Source: Seison nebaliae (taxonomy: Eukaryota). From it: a stretch of DNA of 64,000 nucleotides. Shown here one piece after another: positions 1-49,775 of the stretch (positions are counted from its first letter, which is position 1; each line of letters starts with the position of its first letter). The position numbers and the translations under genes were made by a program. The DNA is taken from assembly GCA_023231475.1 (NCBI GenBank), contig JALJEE010003034.1:1-64000 (forward strand), written 5' to 3'. The notes beneath the pieces are model-generated. The model worked only from the letters and a program-made list of their open reading frames with translations. It searched no databases and was not told the origin of the DNA.

Positions 1-31
1 ATATGAACAATATTGGAAGGAAGAAATACAC

Positions 32-217
32 TTGACAATCTTAAAAAAAGTTTCGTACGCAATTGGCAGCATATCCTGCACAAGTTTATGCTGCGAACAA
101 TTTTTTTCATCAGCAGGTAATATTTTTACTGATAAAAGAACTAATCTTACTGATGAGAATCTAGCAATGTTGTCGTTTTTGCACAACAACGCAAATTTCA
201 TTTTGAGATATTGTTAA
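32..217 (+). mobile_element. hAT transposase C-terminal dimerisation-domain remnant
   Basis: CEQFFSSAGNIFTDKRTNLTDENLAMLSFLHNN matches the hAT/ZBED motif sERxFSxaGxixtxxRxxLxxenlxxLxFL; truncated at the window edge. Confidence 0.8.
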
Positions 218-2685: not shown

Positions 2686-3291
2686 TTAATTAATTGGTTT
2701 AATTGAGTTATTTTTTGATTTATTCATTTCTTTACAAATATTATTCAATTCATTATTTAATTGGAACAAGCGGTGACACATCAATTTTGCTACTTTAGCA
2801 CGGTTTGTTTCATATTCACGTTCCTCTTGTAATTGAAGTAGTGATTGTAATGGTAATTCATTATTATTTATGATATTGTTGTTATTAACATTATGATGCT
2901 TCAATTCTTCATTCTGATTAATGTTATCATCTACGTCAATATCGTTATGCATGTCATTTGTGGACAATTGGACACTCTCATGCAATTGGTCATTCCTTTC
3001 GATAATGTGACGTTTTAATTTATTAAGAATAATGCTCTCATCATCATTATTGGAATGGTGGATGGTAAAAGATTTATGTAATAAATCATTTGAGGGAAAT
3101 GATCGCTTACCTATTAGTTTTAATGGAGATGAATGAAAAATAAACCAAGAAAATAATGGAAGAATATAAAGGAAATTTAATGGAAATTTAAGATAACCCC
3201 AATAAGTTGAATGACTGAATTGTGAGAGAATTGGAGAAATGACAACAATCATCATCATCACCGAAGTGATGACTGTTTGGAGGACTAACAT
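2686..3291 (-). CDS. AKH/GnRH-superfamily neuropeptide precursor (predicted pQFSHSTYW-amide)
   Basis: 23-aa signal-like N-terminus; removing the in-frame 87-nt intron 3197-3111 (GTTATC..AATAG) gives S|QFSHSTYW-GKR; two Cys near the C-terminus. Confidence 0.75.
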   Translation of the reverse strand: MLVLQTVITSVMMMIVVISPILSQFSHSTYWGYLKFPLNFLYILPLFSWFIFHSSPLKLIGKRSFPSNDLLHKSFTIHHSNNDDESIILNKLKRHIIERNDQLHESVQLSTNDMHNDIDVDDNINQNEELKHHNVNNNNIINNNELPLQSLLQLQEEREYETNRAKVAKLMCHRLFQLNNELNNICKEMNKSKNNSIKPIN

Positions 3292-3951
3292 CGAAATAAG
3301 ATTTAAAGGAGTGTTTGATTGATTGAGAATGAAATTAGATTGGGAGGAGAACTGAGATTTTTATTTGATAAATGACGAACGTGAATAAATCTAAATAATA
3401 ATGAAAAAGAAATTTTAATAGAATAATGAGAATTGAACGTACTCGTCGTCTGGTGTGGAAAAGAAGGAGAAAAATGAATAATATGTTTATTTCGTTGAAA
3501 CATTGGAGAAAGCGACTCCTAATTCAAATGAGTGTGAGGTGAAGTTGAAGAAAATAACGGGAAAAAACATTAATTATTTTCTGAAGAAAAGATACGATGG
3601 AAAAAGGAATAAGAAGGTGGAAATTTAGGTAAGTGAGAATTACCTTTGATATGATGATAACATACGATACGTATCGACAAATCATTGGACATAGAACAGA
3701 AGAATTTTGATGTTTCACACAGAGCTAATAATTATCAATGCTTTCGCAAACTAGATTTATTGACGAATTATTTTATATTATTGATAATCGAATGGTGTAT
3801 GCATGAAATGAGGAGAATATATAAAAACGATAAAAATAATATAAGAAAAATTGGGGAAATTTTCCAGAAGTGCAAAATTTGGAAGGAAGTTTTATCGAAT
3901 AAAAATTATCACTTTTTTCCCCCGAATTTTTAATTAGCTTTTCCCTTTTAA

Positions 3952-4844
3952 TTAATCGGACTCGGAATCGATGTCTGAATCGGAATCAAAATTTCCGAAT
4001 TTATTATTCTTCCGAATTTCATGCCGTTTCAATTGGAAATGGCGTCTTGGATCTTCTGTTAGTTCACTGTTCTCTATCGCATTCATTTCTTTCAATTTCC
4101 ATTCCAAATCTACTTCCCGTAATTCGACCTTATGTGAATTCGTTTCTCCCAACATCTGCCCTCCAATTAACTGTTTCTTCAATTCTCCATTCTTGTAATG
4201 AAATATTGCAGGAAGATTAGTAGGCGGAAAATTTGGTACACATGTTGACGCAATACTCCTAATAAATTTTGTTTCTTGGAATTTGGGTGCCAGTAAGTCA
4301 AAATATTTGTTAATCGCTTCACAAATCGGAATTCTTCCAACAAAAAATTAAGGAACATATAATTGAAATGGAATGAAAGACCAACCCATTTTCATACAAA
4401 TGAAGAACAACATTAACATCATCACCAGCATCATTCACTTGAGATTTGTAGTCTGATGCTGTAATTTGAATACAACGACCAAATCTCTTCCGTCTGTTAC
4501 TCTCCACCAATTCTTTCATTCTTTGTTGTCTAATTATTTCATCTATAAACTTTTAATCCAATTTAGGAGAATGTGTGAACTTGTACTTCAGAAATATTTC
4601 ATCGTCAATATCATCTTCATTCTCGTTTAATTCATCTAATTTCATCTCTTCCGGTTTCTTATCTAATTGAAGGGTCAAAATAACAGTTTGGGATTAAGGA
4701 CAAAATAGTTCTCCAACCATCCTTCGTATATTTCTTTACAGTTTCATCGATTATAGCTATGACATCTTCTTCTGTAATTCCTTTTTCTTTCTCTGGAATA
4801 ATTCCAAAACGACGCAGTTGATCATTCCATTCTGTATCTTCCAT
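3952..4844 (-). CDS. PDCL3: Phosducin-like protein 3 (VIAF/PhLP2A)
   Basis: EDTEWNDQLRRFGIIPEKE, FGRCIQITASDYKSQV..VVLHLY, C-terminal DSDSDIDSESD; several short introns. Confidence 0.85.
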
Positions 4845-5532: not shown

Positions 5533-8306
5533 TCAATATTCATTTGGTATATCTAATATTTTTCGAAGAGCTTCTTGCAATTGTATATCTCCGATTTTCC
5601 TGGCAGTTCCTAATTAACGAATTGATAAGAATGATCGATAATTAAACAAACTTGCCGTATGAGAATTGGCTTTTTCAAATAAAGAATCACCAAAACAATC
5701 ATAAGTTTCACCTACCAATTTAGTAAAATTGGCTAACGTTTCGCCTTTCATCACTGAAGCAATCTGGCTCAAATTATTGAAAATTACAGGAAAAACATGT
5801 AATTCGATCGCTAAAATTTCGGAATAAATTTTCATTATTTGCCCATGAACAAAAAGAAACAACAAAATGAAAACCTTTTTGCTTCGATAGTTTTTGTCTC
5901 GCCAAATTATGAACTATATTTGCCAAATTTCCAAATAACTCAGGTAGTTTCCTTTTGTTATTTTGTTGCGATATGGTGCTCAATGGCTGTATTAATTGAG
6001 AGTTATCTATTTGGAATTATCAATTTAAAAGAAAGATTGATATAGAATAACCGATATATTTTACCATTGTACGAAGTATTTCAGATGCTTTTCGCTGATG
6101 ACTTTTTTGCTGAGAGGCAAGATTATTACAAATCTATTTAATGAAACAATTCACTTTATATTGTTGAAATGAATGAAAATTAAACAGCAGGAATGGCATT
6201 TGATAGAATTGGAGTCATCTCGTCTGCTAAAACTGGTACTAGTTGGTGCATAGATTCTAATGCAGAAAGACATACTTTAGAATTGGAATCATTTAAACAA
6301 CATGTAAATTTATCGAAAATCTATAGATGAAATTTATGAATTCAAATCATATGTAATTTATAATTAAACTTGTATTAAGGCATTATTTTCTCGATATCTA
6401 TCATCGGTTTCGCAACCTATTTGGAATTTCTCAATAGCACTTTGTCTCTCTCGGAAATTAGAACTTGCCATCTCATCGCATAATGTTCGTACTTTTTCAT
6501 TATATTCCTCTTTGCTAAAACGAGGACCATCATTCTTTCTTCTTATTGATGAACGCATATGAGACTTATTTAATATCTTTCTATCATAATCATGTTCGAG
6601 TCTCGAAGAGTCTTTTGATCTCAACATTTCTATTGATTCATTAACACTTGGTGTCCTCTCCACCGTATGATTATTGAGATGCTGATTAAAGTTAATCGAA
6701 GCATTTAATCCTGGCAACGATTTTGCACTATTGGTAGATCCCAGACTACCAATTCCTTCGTCACTTAACGTCGCAGTAGATATAGCTCTTGTATAACCGT
6801 TGCCTCTTGCACTATTCACCACTGATGATAAACCAGATGATGGTAATTTCCTTAAAGAAGGTGACTGCGTCAAATTTCTAATGGGCTTCGCTGAATCAGT
6901 AGGAAATACACCAGGTCCTTTCGATTTAATTGTTTGTACTTTACTTTGAATATATTTTTGAGTATTCGCCGGAAGGAATCGGTTAAAGGCACGATCAAAT
7001 TCATCCGGTGATAATGACTTAATTAATAAATCATAAATTGAACGACCATAATATCGAATTTCGGCAGAAGCATCACTCATAAATGTAGCGCCTATTCCAA
7101 ATAAACGTTCACCCAAATCCTTGGTTGAACTGGGACCAGCACTGTTACTGGAATTGTGCACAAGTTTACTTATGTTAATTCTATTGGAACATATGGCGAA
7201 TATATATTGAGCTGTGACACATCTCACTGCTGTGTTCTTGTGACTTCCACCATGCGTTATTAGACATGCAAGAAAACGATTCGCATTTATATTCTCCGAT
7301 AAACTATCCAAAGTTTGTAAAACATCGTTCCTAATAAATTCAATACTTTCCCCACTCTTATGGAGCAGAGTAGCAATAACTAAATCGATATCGGACTCCA
7401 ATTGTCTCTTCAAAAAACCAGACATATAACCAATGGTGCTAATAGCATATCGTGCCACTTGAGATCTTAAATTTTTTACCTTTATAATTTTTATAGTCAA
7501 ATAATTTTTTTTTTTTAAAAAAAAGTTCATTTAACTTCTTTTGTTAAAGCAACCATTATTGGATGGATTTGTCCTTGTAATGTATTAGAATGATGTGTCG
7601 CTAAACGGCGAAATATTGTCATAGAAAGATTTTTCTTTTCCCTAATTAAAAGAATGGTCGATAAACACAAAGTCTTAGAAATTGTCAAACCAATCTTCCA
7701 ATTTAATGAAATCGAGTGCATCATGCAACATTGCGTCGGGGTTGTTATATGGTTTCATAGAATTATCTTGGGAAGATGGTCTAGTTGTTGGAATATGTTT
7801 CTTATGGTTATTAATGGTCACAGAATTTTGCCTCTTCAATTTTGAATTCGAGCTAAAAAATTTTTCAAATGACATTATTTGATAAGTTTGAAAACGGTGT
7901 ATAACCCTAATTCCACATTTGACACAATGGAGATACTTGAAGATGTGGCATGTAAATTATGTTTTATATTTGATGATGTAGGTGGCAAATTCATGATAGG
8001 AGTCTGTCGTTTTCTTGCTGAAGAAGAATTGGATGATGGTAATGATCGAAGATTTGGTAATATCGTCGGAGATGGTTTCAGTTTTTGATCATAACTTCTG
8101 TCCATACTATAAAATTGATCTTGTTTCTTCATCGGTCGTATCGGACGGTCATCGTAATTTGAAGATTCATGAGTTGGTTTCCCATCCGAAACCTTTTCCT
8201 TTTGATGTATTTGCTTGACGGATGGTACGGATTGTGTTTGCACTGGCTCCACATTGATGCGTCGTGGAGTGACGACAGGAGCAGCACTACTCGCTCCAGT
8301 TCCCAT
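5533..8306 (-). CDS. TOGARAM: TOG-array axonemal protein, crescerin/FAM179 family (two TOG domains)
   Basis: VKNLRSQVARYAI, FIRNDV, GGSHKNTAVR, DASAEIRYYGR, IFDKFTCCLNDSNSKVCLSALE; N-terminus MGTGASS. Confidence 0.8.
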
Positions 8307-9549
8307 GGTTAACAGGTCATTTGAAATATCTTAATGAGAATGGAGTAAAATTCATGAGATTCGATATGAAGTTGAATATTAATGAAATTAAGAAAGAATA
8401 GTTTTGTTTTTTTTTAAGTATTTATTAGGATTATTTATCGTATTAAAGAATTTCAAACTAAAAAATTGGAAGGAAACTATTTATGAGAAGAATCAACAAG
8501 AAATTTATAGTTTTTCCTTTGTACATTCAAATTATAAATGTTCTCCTGCTAATAATTAATTGGAGACTGATATTACATAATATTATTATATGGAATTGTA
8601 TATATATAAATATATGTATCGACAAGTTTATATATCACTTTCTTAATAAGCGAACTTATAGATGACGATAATAATTTATGAGATGTAACACTTTCAATTA
8701 TTACGACATGCAACTTTACCAGAAAAACAAGTTATTTCTCCAACTATAAATTCTTTCTCTACATCTCCAATGGAAAGGGAGTTGGCAGGTATAATAACAA
8801 TGTCTTACATATCACTGACGAATGGTCATTTCAATGTTGCGTCGATACTTTTGTATTTCTTGGTCGAATTGCTCGCTCGTTAGTTACAAGGTTCCATTTC
8901 CAATTCGATTGCTCGACCGTGTTAAAAGCAATGTATGGGAAATGTACATGTAGACGTGTATCATGGAAAGACTCATTAATGTTCTACGTTTCTCAAAACC
9001 AACTTTCTATTTTTGTTAATTTCATACGAAAAAAATTTTCCAGAGAGATAAAGTTTCCAATGAAATTAACGAAAAAAGTTTACGAAATATATTTCTCTTC
9101 TAATCATTCGATTTATTAGTTATGAGAGGAATCATTTTCCTCAATTCATTAGTTGCCACTTATGGTTCAGTTGGGAAAGGAGAAATATTGAGTAGATGAA
9201 ATGTTACCAATTCCACTTTTTTTTCGAAAAAAAAGTCACGAAATACGGAAACAACGGAATGACTTTAAGTCATATAAATGCAGCGAATATATTTTCCTGC
9301 TCATATTTTAAAAGAGGTCATGGCAATGTTTCAAACAACAAACTTTTCAACATCTTCTAAAAATTGGAAAGAAGAATATTATTCGGATTCTCTTCTCACA
9401 TGTTCTCTACGCTCATATAGACAGTATTGGGAAAACAAATTAAATTTTGATTACTTGGAGGAGGGAATTTTGGAAGACGAATAATTTTTGATAAAATTTT
9501 CTTATATGTCAATGACTATATTTCCATTGAACAAGGAACATGAAGAATG

Positions 9550-15323: not shown

Positions 15324-16807
15324 ATGTTGTCAAAATTATTACGAAACACTTCTCTCTCACAATTTGCTTTACGTCGTACGTATGTGAACACGCAGGCAGA
15401 ACATAAAGGTCAAGTCATTGAGGATGTGGCAAAAGCTCAGACGTATGAGAAAGTTCTTTCTTTTACTTCCTAGAACGTCCTCTAATTATTCTAATATCAT
15501 TCTTTAGCAACATAAGGAACAATTGAAGAGAAATCAAACTGTTTCCGATTTCAGTGAATTAGTAAGAGATTTTTTGAATCCCAAAGACTTTTTCAACTCT
15601 TTGACTTCTCATGGAATCAACTTCTATACTGGTGTACCGGATTCTCTATTAAAAGGTTTGCATTAATTATTATTATTTGAATTGATGAAACTTTTATTTT
15701 TTGAAAAGATTTCTGTGCTTTTGTGACTGATAATGCTAAATCTCACATAATTGCGGTAAATGAAGGAGCCTCGATTGGATTAGGTATTGGCCATTATTTG
15801 AGTAGTGGAACTCCCGCATTAGTTTATATGCAGAACAGTGGATTGGGAAATGCTATTAATCCATTACTATCATTGGCATCACCTGATGTCTATTCAGTAC
15901 CATTATTATTATTGGTTGGATGGAGAGGAGAACCAGGTAAACGAGACGAACCACAACACAAACAACAAGGACAAGTAACTCCTGGATTATTGGCATCAAT
16001 GCATATTCCTTTTACTATTCTACCCGATTATAAAGAAGGTGCCGATCAAGCCATCGCTACAGCTTTCTCTCATATGAAATCGACAAATGGACCATATTGC
16101 TTCCTAGTCAAACGACAAACATTTTCACCTTATATTCTGAAAAATTCGAATAATGGAAAAAAGTTTAAATTCATTTTCCAATTAATTTCCTTCACAAACA
16201 AACATTTTCTAGATATGATATGACTCGAGAATCAGCACTTCAATCGATTATTGATTATTTAGGTAGACGAGATATTGTTGTTTGTACGACAGGTATGTTA
16301 TCGAGAGAATTATTCGAATATCGTCAACAACGTGATGAAGGACATGAGAAAGATTTTTTAACTGTCGGTGGAATGGGACATGCTTCAATGATCGCTTTAG
16401 GAATCGCTCGAGATAAACCAACTCGAAAGATCGTTTGTTTAGATGGAGATGGAGCATGTTTGATGCATATGGGAACACTGGCAACTATCGGAACGTCGAA
16501 AGCGAAAAATTTCAATCATATCATCATCAACAATGGAACTCATGATAGTGTGGGTGGTCAACCAACGGATGCCGGATTATCATCTGTTAATTTGAGCAAT
16601 GTCGCCAAATCGGTTGGTTATCGAAATGTTGTAAAAGTTTCAACAAAAGAAGAATTAATTGAAGCCACGAAGAAATTGAAGAGTTTAGAAGGACCGAATT
16701 TAATCGAAGTTCAAGTTTTAGGTGGACATCGAAAGAATTTGACAAGACCAAATCGTACTCCTGCTCAAAATAAACGTGATTTCATGCATTATGTAGCATT
16801 ATCATAA
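15324..16807 (+). CDS. aepY: Phosphonopyruvate decarboxylase (TPP-dependent), 4 exons
   Basis: FYTGVPDSLLKDF, VYMQNSGLGNAINPL, GWRGEPGKRDEPQH, DFLTVGGMGHAS, TPP motif DGDGACLMHMG..NNGTHDSVGGQ. Confidence 0.92.
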
Positions 16808-17182: not shown

Positions 17183-18924
17183 ATGGAATTTAATAAAATA
17201 TTTATGAAATTTTTCCTCTTTTCACTCTTCTATCTCACCGTTCATTCGAGTGAAGATATCGATTATAAAACTTATCTGCAAAAGTATGTGGATAAATATG
17301 ATCCGATGTTTGGATGGAAACATTTTGAAACAATCAAATTGGAAGATTATGATATTCATGTCATCAATATGACGTCACTTCAATGGATCGATGGTTTAAT
17401 TGAAATATTCTCGTTTAATCTCAATTTTCATTAGCTAGTTATAGTAATCGACATATCTGGTGGCATTTCGTCAACATTTTCGTTCCTCACAAACTTACGA
17501 GAAAAGAACATGTCTTCTACTTCCTCGACACGTATAAAAACACAGCAAAGTTCTTTAATCTTCATAAAAATTGAGAAAACTAAAATTTTTAAATTGAAAT
17601 AGAACTGTTGATCCTGCTAGTGATTTCGTAGCGTTAGTTGGCATGTTTGCCGTTGGATTAGAATGTATAGCTGTTGAAATCCAACAAATTCCGAATCAAC
17701 CAATAAAATATTCAGCTGATCCAAGTGGAAAATCGAGAGATGAAGACGACAATATTGGATGGGCATGGGCAGCTTTCCTTAACGATACGAAGACACCTGA
17801 AAAACTTATACATTTACCAGCTGTTAAAGCAGCCGTTCGTGGTATGGATACTACACAAAATTATTTAGAACAAACTTTTGGTTACAAACCGAATAAATTT
17901 TTCGTTGCTGGAGCATCAAAACGAGGATGGATGACTTGGTTAACGGCGGCAGTCGATGACCGAGTTTTCGCATTCTCCCCTATCGTTTTCGATCTATTAA
18001 ATATTACACATTCATTACATCATCATTATATGTCGATGAATGGAGGATGGACATTTGCTTTCGAACCGTATTGGTCTTGTAATATCATCAGTAATTTAGA
18101 TGATGAACGACAAGTTCGCATGGAGCAAATGGCCGACCCATTAAGTTCCATTTCGTTTCACTTCTTATTCTTTTTCTATCATTTAGGTTATCTGGATAAA
18201 TATGTCAATAAACCAAAATTCCTAATTACAACTGGGGGAGACGAATTCTTCATATTAGATGATCTTAAATTCTTCTGGAACTCTTTACCCGGAGACAAAT
18301 ATTTACGGTAATTATTAATTATTTTCATTTTTCATTTGAATCCTTTTCATTTTATTAGACGCATCCCAAATGCTGAACATACTTGTGTTGGTCATATCAT
18401 TAGTCTCTACTTCTCCCTAAGAACTTTCTTCCTCTCACTAGTCGAAGTTAAATTGCAATTTCGCGTTTTCGATTATATTTTTCTAGGAATTTCCCTTACC
18501 ACATCTTGATTGGAATGTGACGTATACGAGCAACGAAGCAACTATTGTGGCATGGATGGATCGAACACCTAATCAAGTGTCGATATATCATGCTCATACA
18601 TTAAACGATGGAAGGTTTCTAAATTATCCATTAATTTACTAATCGAAATAAATTATCAGACGAGATTTCCGTTTATTAGAATTGGGAAAGAAGGTCCATC
18701 CAGTAATTTGGTTGGAGAAACATGTTGAAATAAATAAACAAAATTTATATAAAGCAACATTGCCAATGCCACAAAAAGGATATGAAGCATTCTACTTTCA
18801 ATTCACTTTTGATTCACCTGATCCATCGGCTGATATCGAACTAACAACTCAAGCAGCTATCTTACCGAATTATTATCCACATGAAGATTGTCATGCTCTT
18901 GGATGTCAAGGACATTTAGTTTGA
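17183..18924 (+). CDS. Secreted PqaA/AprA-like alpha/beta-hydrolase family protein, 7 exons
   Basis: Signal peptide; NMTSLQW, WWH, QIPNQP, GASKRGWMTW, GDEFF, PNAEH motifs of the PhoPQ-activated pathogenicity-related family. Confidence 0.85.
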
Positions 18925-32579: not shown

Positions 32580-35500
32580 ATGCCAGCTGCTGCGGTTCGA
32601 TTTTGGATTTATTTCAGAAATTTTTGAAGAATTAATTTTCAGGGCGAATATGTATGGTTGGAACCGAAGACGAAGGGAGAATTTGACGTTCCAATCGGTG
32701 CAAAAATACTTAGCGTGAAAGGAGGACAGATACGTCTGAAAGATGATAACGGGAAAGAACTTACTCTACCTGGAAACACCAAACTGAGACCGATGCATGT
32801 CACATCGGTTGATGGACTGGATGATATGATAAATTTAGGAGATCTACATGAAGAAGGAATTCTCCATAATTTACATATGAGATATGAAAATAATAAGATT
32901 TATGTTAGTAGTCTTCAATTGAAAGATCTTCTTATCTTTTCGTAATTAATTTCTATATTTCATAACAATTTCAATTTATAGACATATACTGGAAGTATTT
33001 TAGTTGCAGTGAATCCTTATAAAGACTTACCGATTTACTCGACTGATTTGATGAGGTCTTATCAGAATCGTGCATTTTCTGATATGCCACCACATGTATT
33101 TGCTATTGGAGATAATGCATATCAAGCAATGATGAGAAACCAAGTTAATCAATGTATAATTATTAGTGGGGAATCAGGTGCAGGTAAAACAGAAAGTACC
33201 AAATTTATTTTGAAGTTCTTAGCAACAGTGAGTGGAAGACATTCGTCAATTGAGAAACAAATTCTTGATGCCAATCCTATTATGGAAGCTTTCGGTAATG
33301 CGAAAACAATTCGAAATGACAATTCATCAAGATTCGGGAAATATATCGATATCCATTTCAATTTCAGTGGTGCAATCGAAGGTGCTAAAATAGATCAATA
33401 TCTTTTAGAAAAATCGAGAATCGTTCAACAAACGAAAGACGAAAGAAATTATCACATTTTCTATTGTATGTTGGCTGGCATGAGTGATTCGGAGAAGAAG
33501 AAATTGGGATTGACTAATCCTAAGAGTTACAAATATTTATCTGGTGGCAGTTTCGATTGTCATGGACGAAATGATAAGATTGATTATGAGGAGATTTTGG
33601 ATGCGTGCAAAACGTTGATGTTTTCTAAAACTGAAATTTTCGAGTTGATGAAAATTCTCGCTGGTTTACTTCATTTGGGAAATATTATTTATTCGAAGAA
33701 AATGGATGATAATTTGGAAGGCGCGACCATAACTGACAAATTATCATTAAATTCAGTGGCGACTATCTTCGATGTAAAGGTTGACGATTTATCTCAATCG
33801 TTGACACACAAAACAATTTTCACTGGAACTGATTCAGTCACTTCTCCACTACGTGTCGATCAAGCAATGGATGTACGAGATGCATTTGTCAAAGGAATAT
33901 ATGGAAAGATGTTTATTTGGATTATTGACAAGATTAATGAAGCGATTTATCGACCAACAAATCCTGATGATACGCGAGGTATCGGTGTTCTCGATATTTT
34001 TGGATTTGAGAATTTTGGAAAGAATTCATTCGAACAGATGTGCATCAATTATGCCAATGAGAATCTTCAACAATTTTTTGTTCGACATATTTTCAAATTA
34101 GAACAAACGATGTACGACAATGAAGGAATTTCTTGGAAAAACATCAAATTTACAGATAATCAACATATTTTAGATTTGATCGCGGAAAAACCATTAAATA
34201 TCATTGCTCTAGTTGATGAAGAAACCAAATTTCCTAAAGGAACCGATCTCACCATGTTAGAGAAATTACATTCAAATCACCAAAGAAATCCAGATTATTT
34301 GTTACCCAAATCTTCGGGAGACAAATCGTTCGGTATAAGACATTTCGCAGGAGATGTCTTCTATCATTCTGATGGTTAATTCATTTACTTTAGATTTTTC
34401 TATTTTAATTGAATTTAATTAATTTAAATAGGATTTCTTGATAAGAATCGAGATACATTCTCTCAAGATCTCCTATGGTTGTTACAATCGACCAAATCAT
34501 CATTTTTGAGAAAATTGTTTAGCAATGATTTAGACACAGTTAGACAAGATTTATAATAATGAATTAAATAATTATAATTTCTCCTCACTCTCCTCCTATA
34601 GTTGATTAACGATCCAACGGTTTCATTTACATTTCCTATGGGTGATTTAATCAATTAATTTTATGGAATTATTTAGGGAACAGAAACGAAAAGAAGAACG
34701 CCAACACTTGGTGCCCAATTCAAAAAATCTTTAGATGTTCTTATGACGAATTTATCAAAATGTCAACCATTTTTTGTTCGATGCGTAAAACCGAATGAAG
34801 TGAAGAAACCGATTGTTAATATTTCGAATTTTAATGGAAAAACAGAATTTTTAAAATAACTTCAAAGATTTTCGACAGAGAATTAGCCGTACGACAATTG
34901 AGATATTCGGGTATGATGGAAACTATTCGTGTACGTCGAGCTGGTTATCCTATCCGTCATACGTTTGCAGAATTTGTTGATCGATATCGGTTAATTTTTG
35001 AGTAACTCAAAAACTGATTATAATAATTGATTCGATCGTAGTATGTGTTGCGATGGAATTAATCCGAGTTTCAAAGAACGTGATTGTAAATCTGCATCCA
35101 AAAAGATATGTGTGAAAGTCCTAAAAAATGGAGATTATCAATTGGGAAAGACGAAAGTCTTTCTAAAAGTTTTTTTATTTTTCAATCGAAATGTTTTTAA
35201 TAATTCCCATTAGGATTCCCAAGATAGTTTAATGGAGAAAGCGAGAGAAGAAGCTATTGCACAAAAAATTGAAATTCTTCAACTTTTCATTAAAGCGTGG
35301 GCGATGAGAAAGATATTTCTCAAGTTAAATGGCGGTATGGAAATAATTCAAAATCACTGGAGAATGTATAAGATTAAAAGACAATTTGATAATGTGCAAA
35401 ATGGTTTTATGAAAGTCCAATCTATTTTCCATTCTAGAAATACAGCTCGAAGATACTTTACTTTGTTAATGAATCTGATTAAAATTCAAAGTCAATGTCG

Positions 35501-38500
35501 TGGATATTTAGCTCGTAGTAATGCCAGATTATCTTATCGAAGTTTATTAGAGTTACAAGCGGCAATCAAAGGACATTTAGTGCGAAAATATTATGGAAAA
35601 GAATTGAAACATTTAAAAAAATTAGAGGAATTAGAGTATAAGAAAGAAAACGATTTTGAGTTGAACAGATCGTCGATGGAGGAAAGCGAAGCATTAAGCA
35701 AAGCCGAAAAGTCTTTTTATAAAGGTGTCAAAGTTATCGATAAAGATCTGGAAGAATGGCAAATGGAAAATAAGAAAAAAACAGAGAAAGTTCAATTGTT
35801 GTTAGAATTGTTAAGCAGGAAACAAGATGGAGATAAAACGGTCAATAAAGAATTAAGTGAAATTTTTGGATTTTTGCAAAACACTCAAAATGACGACGAA
35901 GACAACGATGAGGAGGAAGAAGAAGAAATTGAAGAAATTGAAGAAATTAAACAATTCACTGCCGATGTTTCTGATCATTTATTTAAGAAGTTTGCCAAAA
36001 CCCATTTTGGAAAAGACGTAACATCGTCATACGAAAGAAGAATGATAAATAACTCACTTCTCAATTTGCAAGCGATGTGTGACAAAATTGGCGCTTTGGC
36101 CACTTGGATTAACATTTTAAGGTTCATGGGTGACATTTCTGATGTGGCAGAAGACACTCAGAAACTTAATGATGATCCGGCACCAATTATTACTCGAATT
36201 TATAGTACAATAGGAAGGAAGTTGAATGAAAAACATTTGATCGAAGCACAAAAATATATGGGGAAAATATCAACAGAGAAACCGAATAGACGTGCCACCA
36301 AACAAATAAATGCAACCGCTCAAGGTGATAATAAGAAAGTTCGTCAAGGAAATCCATTCATTCAAGAACGTGTAATGACGAATTTGGAGAAAGTTCATTT
36401 TATCACTTCGATGGGTATTTTGAGACCGGAATTGAGAGATGAGATCTATTGTCAAATTTGTAAACAATTAACTAAAAATCCTGATAAACGATCATTCGCT
36501 CGGGGTTGGGTGTTATTGACCATGTGTATATGTTGTTTCATTCCAACTGATCGATTTATTCTTTATTTGAGAAAATTCATAATGGACGGTCCTGTTGGAT
36601 ATCGGTCATTCTGTGAAGATCTTCTCAAACGAACATTCAAAAATGGTACAAGAGATCAACCATCGTCATATATTGAATTACATGCCGTTTGTACCAAAGA
36701 ACCAATTATTCTTCCAATTCAATTTGTAAATGGTCATTCAAAAACTTTGTACGCTGATTCTGCAAGTTCCGCTAAAGAAATATGTACTGCTCTGTGTGAT
36801 AAAATAGGATTAGTTGATCGCTTTGGTTTTGCACTTTACATCAGCATGGATGGAAGCAAATATTCCATTGGTAATGGTTGCAATCATGTCATGGATATAA
36901 TCTCGAAAGCGGAACAAGCCACCAAAGAAAAGGGTTCAGGTGAAGCTACAGCGGCGTGGAATATTTTATTTAGAAAAGAGATATTCAAACCATGGCATAG
37001 TGCATCGGACGATCCAATTTCAACGAATTTAATTTATGAACAAGTTTTCATTTGAATTAAAAATTAAAAAATTATTTTAAAAAAGATCGTTCGTGGTGTT
37101 AAATATGGAGAATACTCGTTTGATAGTGACCAAGAATTCGCTAAGATGGCCGCACAACAACTTTACATTGACATTGGAAGTGGTTACTAAAATTCTGATT
37201 ATTAAAATAGAATAAAATTTTAATTTACATTTTCATTTCATAATTTAGAGTTTGATTCGAAGAGATTATTAGAAATCTTACCAGAATTAATACCAAATAA
37301 AGCCAGTAAAACTTCCGTGAGAGACTTGAGTAAGTGGAAAACATTAATCACGGATGAATTCAAAAAAGGAGATTTTGTTTTAAACGATGTTGGCATTGAT
37401 CGAACAAAAGAAGATATTGTTAACTTTGCCAAATTTAAATGGCCATTATTATTCTCCAGATTTGAGGATGCACATCAGTTAAATTTAAATATCTCTTCGA
37501 TCAATTCAACCCTTTAATTCTTCAACAGAATTTCCGGCCCTAAACTATTAAAAAAACAAGTGAAACTTGCAATAAATTGGACGGGAATTTATTTCATTGA
37601 CGATCGAGAACAGGTGCTTAAAGAGATTCCTTACGCAGAAATAACTGGAATCTCATCTTCCGAGTTTGATGCCTTTTCATAATTTAAAAAATTTGATATT
37701 TCTTTTATATAGATCGACAAGGTTCAATTACAATTTCATATTTCATGTATTGTGAATGAAGGAAATTTTTATTATTATTAGAATTAATCGAATCTTTACA
37801 CAAAACTTGAGCATCTTTACCGTTTCTGGTGATCAATATGTCTTCGAAATTTATTATGCAAATGAATTACGAGAATTAATTGTGATGTTTCTCGAAGGAT
37901 TGCGTGAAAGATCCAGATATCTCATAGCAATTAAAGATTCTGATTCTTCAGATGGTTTTCAATTTCCTTCGCAATTCTCCAAATATAAATGTCGTTTTAG
38001 TTGAAGATATTCCTAATCCTCCTAAAGATCTTTTAAATTTCCGTAGGGGAGATCTTATTATAATGCAAATAGATAACGATGGTGAATTGAAATTGAAAAA
38101 AAATTCATGGACCAAAGGAGAACACGAGAGAACTAAAGAAACCGGTTTGAAATATATTTGATGATATTCCTCACTTTTTCCATTTAGGCAATTTTCATAG
38201 TTCCGCTTTCTATCGCGTTCCAACAATGATGAAACCGGCACCTGAAATCTTAAAACAATTTGCAATACAATCCATGTCTCAAACGGACACTAAAAATGGG
38301 AAACGAAATAATGATTATGAAATTAATGAAGAGGATTTACGAGAGCCATATACATTAGAAAATTTCAGTTATGAATATTTCAGGTTAATAGTTTTATTGT
38401 AAATGTGGAATTGATTCAATAAATTTATTGGTTTTGGACCATAGACCACCAGTGAAAACGACATCATTTGGTAGGAGACATGTTGAGAAATTGTCGATGC

Positions 38501-40107
38501 ATCAAAGAGATCCATTAAGGAATTCGTTGTTGAAGAAAATAAACGCGAAACAATCGTTAAATGATAAAGGAATTGATATATTTGAATCAATTCTTCAATA
38601 TTGTGGTGATATATCGACGAAGGCTGAAAGGAAATCGGTTGAATTGACTGACGAAATATTTAGTGTACCATTAGAAAATGAATTGATAAGAGATGAGATG
38701 TATTGTCAAATGATGAAGCAATTGACTAATAACAAAAGTATTACAAGTGAAGAACGAGCTTGGGAGTTGTTATATTTGGCAACAGGAATGATGTTACCAT
38801 CAACTTTAGTAGAGAAGGAGTTGGCGACATTCCTTAAATCGAGACCAAAAGAGAAAATTGCAAATGAATGTTTCCAACGGTTGTTAAATGTAAAACGGTC
38901 TCCCTTTAAATTGTCATTAGAAGAATCATGAAAAACTGTTTTTAGATTAGGTAACAGAAAGTTCCCACCTCATCTTACAGAAGTCGAAGCAATTCAGGAT
39001 GGAAGTTACATAATGTATCACAAAGTCTTCTTCCCTAATGACAAAGATGAAGAGTTTGATGTAACGAGTACGACTCGAGCGAAAGATATTTCATCACAAT
39101 TAGTTGACAAATTGAATCTAGCATCAACTGAAGGATTCTCGTTATTCATCAAGGTGAAAGATAAAGTCATAAGCATCCCAAGAAATGACTATTTTTTTGA
39201 TTTCGTTCGACATCTAACCGATTTCATGAAAGGTAATTCGAACGAAAAGATCGCTTATATGATATTTTTCATGAAGAAACTTTGGATTAATGTGTCACCG
39301 GATGAAGATACGGTTGCCGATAGAAACTTTTACTTTTATCAGGTTCTCCTCATAATAATCTAATAGTTATTAAATATAAAATGAACAAAAGGAACGACCA
39401 AAATATTTGAAAGGACATCATAATGCGACGGAAGAAGATGTCATTAAACTTGGAGTATTATTATATAGAATCAATTCGAAAGAAGAAGAATTTTTTGGTG
39501 ATACAATCGAAGATAAGAAAGATGATTTCATTCCAAAAAATTACCAACGTCAAAAGAAAATTGGGCAATGGATAAAGTTAATCGAACAGAAATATGAATC
39601 TCTTCAAAACATGTCAAAGTCAGAAGCAAAATCAGAATTCGTTCGAGTTCTATCGACAATGTCAACGTTCGGTTGTGCATTTTTTGATGCAAAAGTTATT
39701 TTTTATTAATTTATTTAATTATGGAAATATTGTATCATTGTTAAGATAAGAGGACAATCATATGGATTACCTTCTATTATCCTTCTTGGAATTAATAGTT
39801 CTGGTCTGATGATAATGGATGCGAAAGATAATGTTATTCTTCATTTATAAATTATTCTAAATATTCGTCTTTTTCAGAGTTTATTAGCGGAATATCCGTT
39901 TACCAAAATTCTCAGTTGGAAATCGTCCAGTAGCAAATTTGTTCTGTCAGTAAAAGAATCAAGAGAAGAAAGGAAATTAACTCTTGAAACACGATTGGTA
40001 AATATTTTTAATTGACGTGTCATTAATGTTATTACATTTTCTAGGGTTATCGAATTGATGATTTATTGACTTCCTATGTCAGTAAACTGATGAATACCCA
40101 GAAATAG
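32580..40107 (+). CDS. MYO7: Unconventional myosin VII (motor-IQ-MyTH4-FERM-SH3-MyTH4-FERM), ~22 exons
   Basis: [25 protein letters not shown] repeats, two [16 protein letters not shown] MyTH4 domains, FERM ending [12 protein letters not shown]. Confidence 0.93.
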
Positions 40108-48180: not shown

Positions 48181-49617
48181 TCATGTATTCAACTCAAAAG
48201 TTTGTACTCTTCGTCCACGAAAAAATGATCTTGTAAATTTCCTGAATAATCTCCTGATTTCGGGGAAGGTGAAGATGTCGAGAATGAAGATATAAGAGAA
48301 ATAGGAACTCGCTGACAATTTGAGAAATGGGAGAATATAATGATGGAATATTTCTAATTTGACGATTGAAAGTTTAATGTAAATTAAAAATTCCATATAG
48401 AGATAATAAGGGAAAGTGAGGAAGATGAAGATGATGTTCCTAACTAGTAAATATTTGGAAATATTTACATGAATATTTTGAAATTTCTTCAAGAATTTTG
48501 ACGATTTCCGATTGTTTTTCGTTTGGCGGATGTCGACGATGAGAATGAGGATGGAAATGATAGCGAGAATGATGGGAATGAGATAGAAAAGATAGAATTC
48601 AACTGACGATAAATAATTTTTCATAAGAAATTTAAAATGTGAATTATTCGTGAGTATGTGACGAGTTAGAGAGGATTGATTGGAATAAATACAAAAGTTT
48701 TGTGGTAATTCAAAGGGGAGATAATGAATTGTGGTGATTGATGAGAGGAAGAGAATGACAATGAAAGGAGTATAGAAAGGATGACGAGAGAAAATATAGA
48801 TGAACCATCGACAAAATGAAGATTTCCCATAAAAGAATTTATGGGATTTGATTGATCGATGGAAATGTTTCCGTTTCTTTTTGATGTAAATATAAATTCG
48901 TTTGATATTCATAAACATCTCACAAAAAATGATTAGACGAATATTAAAAAATAAATGAAATGTTCTCAAATTGCATAAGATGTCCGTATAAAAATATTTG
49001 TCTATAATATGATAATCTGTCAAATCATCTTTCCAATTCATGCAAAGTGAAATCATTTCCGGTAAATGAAGATGGATAATAATGAAGATTGATGACAAAT
49101 AACGAATAGTCATCATATAATAAATGAATAGATTGAATGAATAGCGACTGGTGAAAATTCGGAAGTCATTTCTTAATAAATTATCGAAAACATTCGTTGT
49201 CTTTCTATCATAATCGATGGATGTTATGAAATTATTTTGAGTGAAATCTTCTTTTTTTTCATCACTCCATCGAATAGAGATTCGTTGATGAGAAATATCA
49301 TCTTCCAAAGTTTTCGTGCTAATCAATTCGATATCTGACGAACGTTGACATTTTAACACTTTCTTCTGATATCTTTTGATTTTATTCGAAATGTTCATAT
49401 ATCGTTCGTGGTATTCATTAATAATTTCTGACCGTTTCTTTTGAATTAGATGAATATAGAGGAAGAAGAAGAGTAGATTAAATGTCAATCCAAAAATGAA
49501 ATTGATGAAAGCAATATATAATTCCACAAGATCAATATAATGATATTGACGATGCCATTCGTCAGATGTATGTTGATGGAATTGACATTCGTCACTAATA
49601 TTTTCTAAGAAGGACAT
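48181..49617 (-). CDS. Divergent rhodopsin-like 7TM GPCR, intronless
   Basis: Seven hydrophobic segments; TM1 FGLTFN, Cys at top of TM3 (ILCNL) and in ECL2 (NFCI), YLIP in TM5, FLTFPY in TM6, helix 8 EIRRLF. Confidence 0.7.
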   Translation of the reverse strand: MSFLENISDECQFHQHTSDEWHRQYHYIDLVELYIAFINFIFGLTFNLLFFFLYIHLIQKKRSEIINEYHERYMNISNKIKRYQKKVLKCQRSSDIELISTKTLEDDISHQRISIRWSDEKKEDFTQNNFITSIDYDRKTTNVFDNLLRNDFRIFTSRYSFNLFIYYMMTIRYLSSIFIIIHLHLPEMISLCMNWKDDLTDYHIIDKYFYTDILCNLRTFHLFFNIRLIIFCEMFMNIKRIYIYIKKKRKHFHRSIKSHKFFYGKSSFCRWFIYIFSRHPFYTPFIVILFLSSITTIHYLPFELPQNFCIYSNQSSLTRHILTNNSHFKFLMKNYLSSVEFYLFYLIPIILAIISILILIVDIRQTKNNRKSSKFLKKFQNIHVNISKYLLVRNIIFIFLTFPYYLYMEFLIYIKLSIVKLEIFHHYILPFLKLSASSYFSYIFILDIFTFPEIRRLFRKFTRSFFRGRRVQTFELNT

Positions 49618-49775
49618 GATGATGAGTTTATTGAAAAAAAAAATATTTCATCGAGATGAAAGATATTTGTTGAAAGAGGAATATTAATCATTAGGTGAAA
49701 TTTCACATCTTTCCAAAATCGAATAAAACGTGCTCAACTCATCCACAATTCATTAAAGGAGTGGTAGAAGAACAG

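What the first reader, a model, noticed from the sequence alone, without database searches (positions are those of the whole stretch)
2686..3291. AKH/GnRH-type neuropeptide pQFSHSTYW-amide hidden by an in-frame intron
The 201-aa ORF reads through an 87-nt stop-free intron. Splicing it joins W-G to KR directly after a 23-aa signal peptide, giving pGlu-FSHSTYW-NH2. An N-terminal Gln, Ser5, Trp8, amidation and a Cys-containing associated peptide fit the AKH/GnRH precursor layout. His at position 4, normally aromatic F/Y, is unusual. Automated annotation would likely miss the peptide, and intron retention would give an unprocessable isoform.
Basis: partly seen in the sequence, partly recalled or inferred. 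Interest (0 to 1): 0.72.

Follow-up and report, generated by a model that had tools for sequence, protein, structure and literature searches.

The report
Unannotated rotifer AKH/GnRH-like hormone gene
A small gene in the marine rotifer Seison nebaliae likely has one short intron and is predicted to make an eight-residue hormone of the AKH/GnRH superfamily, a known kind of signal, but with histidine where its relatives have an aromatic residue that their receptors need.

Summary
The window is Seison nebaliae DNA. The 201-aa ORF (3291-2686, minus) contains an 87-nt GT-AG stretch (3197-3111). It is the best of 39 possible introns under a splice model trained on 20 introns of this window. Removing it gives a 172-aa precursor: predicted 23-aa signal peptide, QFSHSTYW, Gly-Lys-Arg, and a two-cysteine tail. 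This is the only such precursor in the window; 0 of 637 simulated windows gave one. The peptide shares 5 of 8 positions with oyster AKH, and Gln-to-Cys spacing in the tail follows AKH/GnRH rather than corazonin. It fails the 'true AKH' Phe/Tyr4 hallmark. Its cysteine spacing and intron position are also atypical. No RNA, homologue or receptor could be shown. A stop-free intron is within chance (9-24%), and retention keeps the Gly-Lys-Arg site, so a retained form would not be unprocessable. AKH-like precursors are already reported in another rotifer (Brachionus). Verdict: a likely real, apparently unannotated, divergent variant of a known hormone superfamily.

The parts
3198..3291 (-). coding exon 1 (94 nt): signal peptide, mature peptide, first base of the Gly32 codon
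3223..3291 (-). predicted signal peptide, residues 1-23
   Evidence: hydropathy and (-3,-1) rule; no SignalP run
3199..3222 (-). predicted mature peptide Gln24-Trp31 (pGlu-FSHSTYW-amide)
   Evidence: hallmarks from PMC5024129
3111..3197 (-). predicted 87-nt phase-1 GT-AG intron with a GTT donor, splitting the amidation Gly codon
   Evidence: rank 1 of 39 GT-AG pairs in the ORF; 22% GC, 52% T; composition above 0 of 302 myosin exon windows and 0 of 476 membrane-protein windows
2686..3110 (-). coding exon 2: rest of Gly32, Lys-Arg (3108-3103), Asn/Asp/His-rich associated peptide, second Lys-Arg (3015-3010), stop
2734..2778 (-). C-terminal amphipathic segment with Cys143 and Cys157 and an RLFQ-x8-C motif resembling the AKH-precursor tail
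   Evidence: compared by eye with precursors
3391..3438 (-). possible 48-nt 5'-UTR intron (GTT donor, TTTAG acceptor)
   Evidence: pattern only; unverified

Best explanation
This is likely a two-exon neuropeptide precursor gene of the GnRH/AKH superfamily, most likely on the AKH/GnRH branch, in the rotifer Seison nebaliae. Shown in the sequence: the ORF, the GT-AG stretch and the Gly-Lys-Arg that its removal creates. Predicted: the intron is spliced out and signal peptidase cuts after Ser23. Inferred from how this family is processed: a prohormone convertase cuts at Lys33-Arg34, Gly32 donates the amide and Gln24 cyclises, releasing pGlu-Phe-Ser-His-Ser-Thr-Tyr-Trp-amide. That peptide would act on a GnRH/AKH-type GPCR, probably in metabolic or reproductive control. 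His4 would need a receptor pocket adapted to it.
For: Intron ranks 1 of 39; its donor scores 5.9 (true donors 1.8-7.9, leave-one-out) and its acceptor 4.0 (true -2.9 to 7.9); GTT donors are the norm here, 18 of 20 myosin introns. Composition is more intron-like than every exon control, including 35 hydrophobic membrane-coding windows. It is the sole precursor hit in the window, against 0 of 637 nulls. It meets 5 of the 6 AKH hallmarks of PMC5024129: length 8, Gln1, aromatic residue 2, Trp8, Trp-amide. It shares 5 of 8 positions with oyster and tardigrade AKH. The tail has hydrophobic-Q-x8-C, as in 13 of 17 AKH-type precursors shown, whereas 8 of 8 corazonin precursors shown have x9 (counted by eye). 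The narrow motif occurs once in 10,722 ORF residues of the window and in 0.01% of shuffles; the broad form occurs in 2.8%.
Against: No transcript evidence. No homologue (Pfam finds nothing even on exon 1 alone). His4 breaks the FS/FT/YS hallmark, and Phe4 is reported essential for insect AKH receptors (PMC5855764). At 87 nt the intron is longer than all 20 myosin introns (42-78 nt). The precursor (172 aa) is longer than those shown, the Cys spacing differs, and the Glu and Arg/Lys usually found between Gln and Cys are missing. The conserved phase-0 intron of AKH genes is not evident, since exon 2 is one open frame. The patterns were fixed after the candidate was known, and the locus was picked from many windows; 0 of 637 only bounds the rate at about 3 in 637 per window.
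Confidence: 0.7

Rival explanations
1. The gene is a real neuropeptide precursor, but its peptide is corazonin-type or a lineage-specific pGlu...Trp-amide unrelated to AKH.
For: His4 is shared with molluscan/annelid corazonins such as pQNYHFSNGW.... The hallmark at 4-5 is not met, the Cys spacing is non-canonical and no profile matches. AKH, ACP and corazonin are hard to separate by sequence (bioRxiv 2024.07.20.604414).
Against: Gln-to-Ser spacing (3 residues) and Trp8 match AKH, not corazonin (4 residues, Trp9). The tail has x8, not x9. Ser3, Ser5 and Thr6 match oyster AKH.
Confidence: 0.17
2. The 87 nt are coding: a single-exon 201-aa secreted or membrane-anchored protein, or a precursor of a 37-residue hydrophobic amidated peptide.
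For: The stretch is stop-free and in frame, while 12 of 12 myosin introns of length 3n contain stops. It translates to a moderately hydrophobic segment (best 19-residue hydropathy 1.49). It is longer than the training introns.
Against: Stop-free by chance 9-24%, and the annotated training set is biased towards introns with stops (inference). Composition exceeds all 778 coding control windows. The splice sites are the best pair in the ORF and happen to restore an AKH-like Trp8-Gly-Lys-Arg.
Confidence: 0.08
3. Not a gene: a chance ORF in AT-rich, Asn-rich DNA between a phosducin-like gene and a hAT transposon fragment.
For: No homologue, no RNA, and not in public protein sets.
Against: 201 open codons in 27% GC DNA, together with a signal peptide, intron, cleavage sites and Cys motif; 0 of 637 nulls.
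Confidence: 0.05

Closest known systems
Oyster (Crassostrea gigas) AKH pQVSFSTNWGS-amide and tardigrade AKH (PMC5024129; text part 1, passages and supplement passages)
   Same: [quoted passage not shown]
   Different: His4 instead of Phe4; 8 residues rather than 10; longer Asn-rich associated peptide; 13 residues between the Cys; phase-1 intron inside the Gly codon instead of the shared phase-0 intron.
Insect AKH octapeptides, e.g. Drosophila pQLTFSPDW-amide and locust AKH-3 pQLNFTPWW-amide (PMC5592718, passages)
   Same: Length 8, pGlu1, hydrophobic residue 2, Ser/Thr5, Trp8-amide; aromatic residue 7 as in locust AKH-3; tail RLFQ against RLIQ in locust AKH-1.
   Different: No Phe4 and no Pro6; no known fat-body function; receptor untested.
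Rotifer (Brachionus) AKH-like precursors (bioRxiv 2024.07.20.604414, text parts 1-2 of 3; PMC10730642, passages)
   Same: Same phylum and superfamily; they show that AKH-like precursors are already reported in Rotifera.
   Different: Their sequences are in figures and supplements that I could not see, so whether His4 is shared is unknown. Those studies covered monogononts and bdelloids, not Seison. The Brachionus APGW/AKH gene is described as intronless and multi-peptide.
Lophotrochozoan corazonins ('invertebrate GnRH')
   Same: Same precursor layout; His at position 4; Ser-x-x-Trp.
   Different: One residue longer before Ser (Trp9), 11-12 residues long, tail x9.

Membership tests
GnRH/AKH/ACP/corazonin superfamily precursor | single peptide immediately after a signal peptide | tested here: met
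   hydrophobic core and cleavage rule place Gln24 first; heuristic, no SignalP
GnRH/AKH/ACP/corazonin superfamily precursor | N-terminal Gln, C-terminal Gly plus dibasic site | tested here: met
   Gln24; Gly32-Lys33-Arg34 after predicted splicing
GnRH/AKH/ACP/corazonin superfamily precursor | associated peptide with two Cys on a conserved helical motif | tested here: inconclusive
   two Cys and RLFQ-x8-C present; spacing 13 against 22-24, inner conserved residues absent
GnRH/AKH/ACP/corazonin superfamily precursor | activates a GnRH-type GPCR | not testable with these tools
   no genome held; needs a receptor assay
true AKH (Li et al. 2016) | 8-10 residues, pGlu1, aliphatic/aromatic residue 2, Trp8, W/WG/WGX-amide | tested here: met
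   QFSHSTYW plus Gly
true AKH (Li et al. 2016) | FS, FT or YS at positions 4-5 | tested here: not met
   His-Ser; so not filed as a true AKH
true AKH (Li et al. 2016) | shared phase-0 intron in the coding region (present in most, not all, AKH genes) | tested here: not met
   only supported intron is phase 1 in the Gly codon; candidate pairs inside exon 2 score lower and are less intron-like in composition
ACP | 10-11 residues, QxTFSRxW | tested here: not met
   8 residues, no Phe4, no Arg6
corazonin (incl. lophotrochozoan) | 11-12 residues, Ser6, Trp9 | tested here: not met
   Ser5, Trp8, 8 residues; tail x8 not x9
vertebrate-type GnRH | decapeptide pQ-H-W-S...P-G-amide | tested here: not met

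The most novel reading that the evidence does not exclude
Seison has an AKH-type hormone that replaced the receptor-critical Phe4 by His, with a co-evolved receptor. It also gained an in-frame intron inside the amidation glycine codon, so regulated intron retention could switch the product between the octapeptide and a 37-residue hydrophobic amidated peptide.
Probability: 0.1. Interest if true: 0.65.

Novelty: new variant of a known kind. Interest (0 to 1): 0.36.

Why it matters
It would add the GnRH/AKH system to Seisonidea, which one paper cited in PMC10125929 places as sister to the parasitic acanthocephalans (title seen). My searches found no neuropeptide report for Seison. A natural His4 ligand would be a direct test of the rule that position 4 must be aromatic. 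It also shows how such genes are missed: neither form is in the protein collections searched. The system is not new to rotifers.

Tried and rejected
No whole genome is held, so there was no receptor or paralogue search. No RNA holder was listed. The contigs laid (3 of 4 runs covered the locus) looked like DNA and showed no joint at the intron; this is no evidence either way. A comparison with a possible second Seison strain was not obtained (one search gave no result), so conservation is untested.

Homology searches of the unspliced ORF or its parts found nothing: Pfam, word-based search limited to 110-352 aa, phmmer on 1.84 billion representatives, ESM Atlas whole protein. The spliced protein itself was not used as a query. 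The Atlas hit of residues 148-201 to Hormone_2 clusters (0.79) is below the usable level and was rejected.

The textbook-looking GTAAGC at 3110 was considered as a donor and rejected: it scores 1.3 under this genome's GTT-type model. Luqin/RYamide (peptide after signal, two C-terminal Cys about 10 apart; recalled, not from a call) was rejected because the peptide lacks Arg before the final aromatic residue. Multi-copy Wamides were rejected because there is a single copy.

Peptide motifs were not found in the paper library or as a neuropeptide in the PMC8557429 supplement. Rfam: 0 hits in the window. Earlier scan notes: nothing for this sequence or genome; one unrelated note from another genome, not used. 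No fold or complex prediction was run, as no alignment exists.

Full report
Source. The window is a compact, AT-rich animal genome (27-34% GC). A myosin VIIa exon at 32982-34379 is 100% identical to a public Seison nebaliae protein (P0123), and removing 20 GT-AG introns from the window reproduces residues 6-2138 of that protein exactly. Seison is a seisonid rotifer. No whole genome was held.

Observation. The ORF 3291-2686 on the minus strand is 201 aa. Bases 3197-3111 are 87 nt, start GT, end AG, are phase 1 and have no stop. Removing them yields 172 aa in which Trp31-Gly32 is followed by Lys33-Arg34; moving the donor one base either way destroys the frame. The Gly codon is split by the intron.

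Is it an intron? The donor GTTATC looks weak by textbook standards but is the rule in this genome: 18 of 20 myosin donors have T at +3 (background 42%, binomial P about 1e-5), and the three donors of the neighbouring phosducin-like gene also begin GTT in my frame-keeping models. With a splice model trained on the 20 myosin introns, 3197-3111 ranks first of 39 GT-AG pairs of 40-121 nt inside the ORF. Its donor is reached by 10 of 272 exonic GT sites and its acceptor by 29 of 383 exonic AG sites. Its trimer composition (0.57; true introns 0.41 in-sample) is reached by 0 of 302 myosin exon windows and 0 of 476 windows from three membrane-protein ORFs, 35 of them hydrophobic. Against this: it is longer than all 20 training introns (42-78 nt), the training set is one predicted gene model, and 12 of 12 training introns of length 3n contain stops. 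A stop-free frame is still expected in 9% (Markov model of true introns) to 24% (shuffles of the candidate) of cases, so it needs no special explanation. No RNA holder was listed, and the contigs laid behaved like DNA, so splicing is predicted, not seen.

Is the precursor more than chance? I scanned both strands for ATG, a hydrophobic core, a (-3,-1) cleavage site, Gln and an amidation/dibasic site, allowing one 40-110 nt intron. Both the strict pattern (AKH hallmarks without positions 4-5) and the loose pattern hit only this locus. In 637 simulated windows the strict pattern never hit and the loose one hit 0.10 times per window. The patterns were written knowing the candidate, and the locus was selected from many windows, so this bounds rather than measures the chance.

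Anatomy and mechanism. Residues 7-21 are hydrophobic; the first permitted cleavage is after Ser23, the only other after Ser28. The N-region has no basic residue. From established prohormone processing (inferred, not shown): convertase cleavage at Lys33-Arg34, trimming, amidation from Gly32 and cyclisation of Gln24 give pGlu-FSHSTYW-amide. The 138-aa remainder is Asn-rich, has a second Lys-Arg at 64-65 and ends in an amphipathic segment with Cys143 and Cys157. If the intron were retained, Gly-Lys-Arg would persist at 61-63 and release a 37-residue hydrophobic peptide: the octapeptide would be lost, but the isoform is not unprocessable.

Comparison with known families. PMC5024129 (text part 1 of 6, passages, supplement passages) defines true AKHs by six hallmarks; five are met, and FS/FT/YS at 4-5 is not. 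The peptide is identical to oyster and tardigrade AKH at positions 1, 3, 5, 6 and 8. PMC5855764 (passages) calls Phe4 and Trp8 the most conserved residues for receptor activation, so His4 is a real deviation. Corazonins have His4 but are one residue longer before Ser and Trp (PMC5592718, passages). In the tail, counted by eye, 13 of the 17 AKH-type precursors displayed have hydrophobic-[QKE]-x8-Cys, and 8 of 8 corazonin precursors displayed from the PMC8557429 supplement have x9. Seison has RLFQ-x8-C, close to locust RLIQ-x8-C. The narrow motif occurs once in 10,722 ORF residues of the window and in 0.01% of exon-2 shuffles; the broad one occurs three times and in 2.8%. But the inner Glu and Arg/Lys are missing and only 13 residues separate the two Cys (22-24 in Bombyx AKH1 and Aplysia AKH). 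The shared intron of AKH and corazonin genes is phase 0 (PMC10321317, passages), whereas this one is phase 1; other intron positions vary among insect AKH genes. It therefore works like an AKH/GnRH-type precursor, but is not filed as a true AKH.

Homologues and annotation. Nothing was found in Pfam, the word-based search (128 candidates, 0 significant, 110-352 aa only), phmmer over 1.84 billion representatives (0 at E 0.001) or the ESM Atlas. The unspliced protein is not in the collection, whereas the Seison myosin is. A deposited spliced model sharing 140 identical residues should have scored, so the gene appears unannotated (inference). All queries were the unspliced ORF or its parts.

What is in print. 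PMC5024129 found no AKH in rotifers, but bioRxiv 2024.07.20.604414 (text parts 1-2 of 3) reports AKH-like precursors in Brachionus and cites earlier reports, one of which I read in passages (PMC10730642) and one of which I did not see (Hauser and Grimmelikhuijzen 2014). Their sequences are in figures and supplements I could not see, which bears on whether His4 is unique. Passages of the Seison genome paper (PMC8351084) contain no mention of neuropeptides or hormones. Searches for the peptide motif (0 papers), Seison plus neuropeptide (3 listings, none on this by title or abstract start), rotifer plus GnRH plus adipokinetic, Brachionus plus AKH and acanthocephala plus GnRH showed no report of this gene; most subscription papers are outside the library. 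Also read as passages, without bearing on the verdict: 10.1101/265579, 10.1101/2020.03.01.971697, PMC3969558, PMC5818035, PMC10125929, and section 13 of PMC8557429.

Verdict. Probability that it is a spliced neuropeptide precursor about 0.87; that it belongs on the AKH/GnRH branch about 0.7 (judgement). It is a divergent variant of a well-known superfamily that is already reported in rotifers. Interest 0.36.

Noticed in passing
window 32904-40044 (+), 4717-4334 (-): Seison introns here mostly start GTT rather than the usual GTA/GTG (usual consensus recalled): 18 of 20 myosin donors (P about 1e-5 against background) and 3 of 3 modelled phosducin-like donors. This may point to altered 5' splice-site recognition. 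A search for Seison plus splice site gave 2 papers, and their passages do not mention it.
   Followed up: partly
window 37713-37721 (+): A 9-nt microexon in the myosin VIIa model between two short introns; an 18-nt exon lies at 34602-34619.
   Followed up: partly
window 15705-16807 (+): Thiamine-pyrophosphate enzyme that by eye resembles phosphonopyruvate decarboxylase (name recalled), suggesting phosphonate synthesis in this rotifer.
   Followed up: no
window 17598-18311 (+): PhoPQ-activated pathogenicity-related (PF10142) family gene, E 1.9e-58, a family with mostly bacterial annotation; origin not examined.
   Followed up: no
window 48181-49647 (-): Intronless 488-codon, highly hydrophobic ORF with no Pfam hit at E 0.001; possibly a divergent multi-pass receptor.
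   Followed up: no
window 2-214 (+): hAT transposase C-terminal fragment about 2.5 kb downstream of the peptide gene.
   Followed up: no
window 3952-4844 (-) and 5600-8330 (-): Upstream neighbours: a four-exon phosducin-like gene (name recalled from its sequence; frame-keeping models) and a CLASP_N-domain gene.
   Followed up: partly
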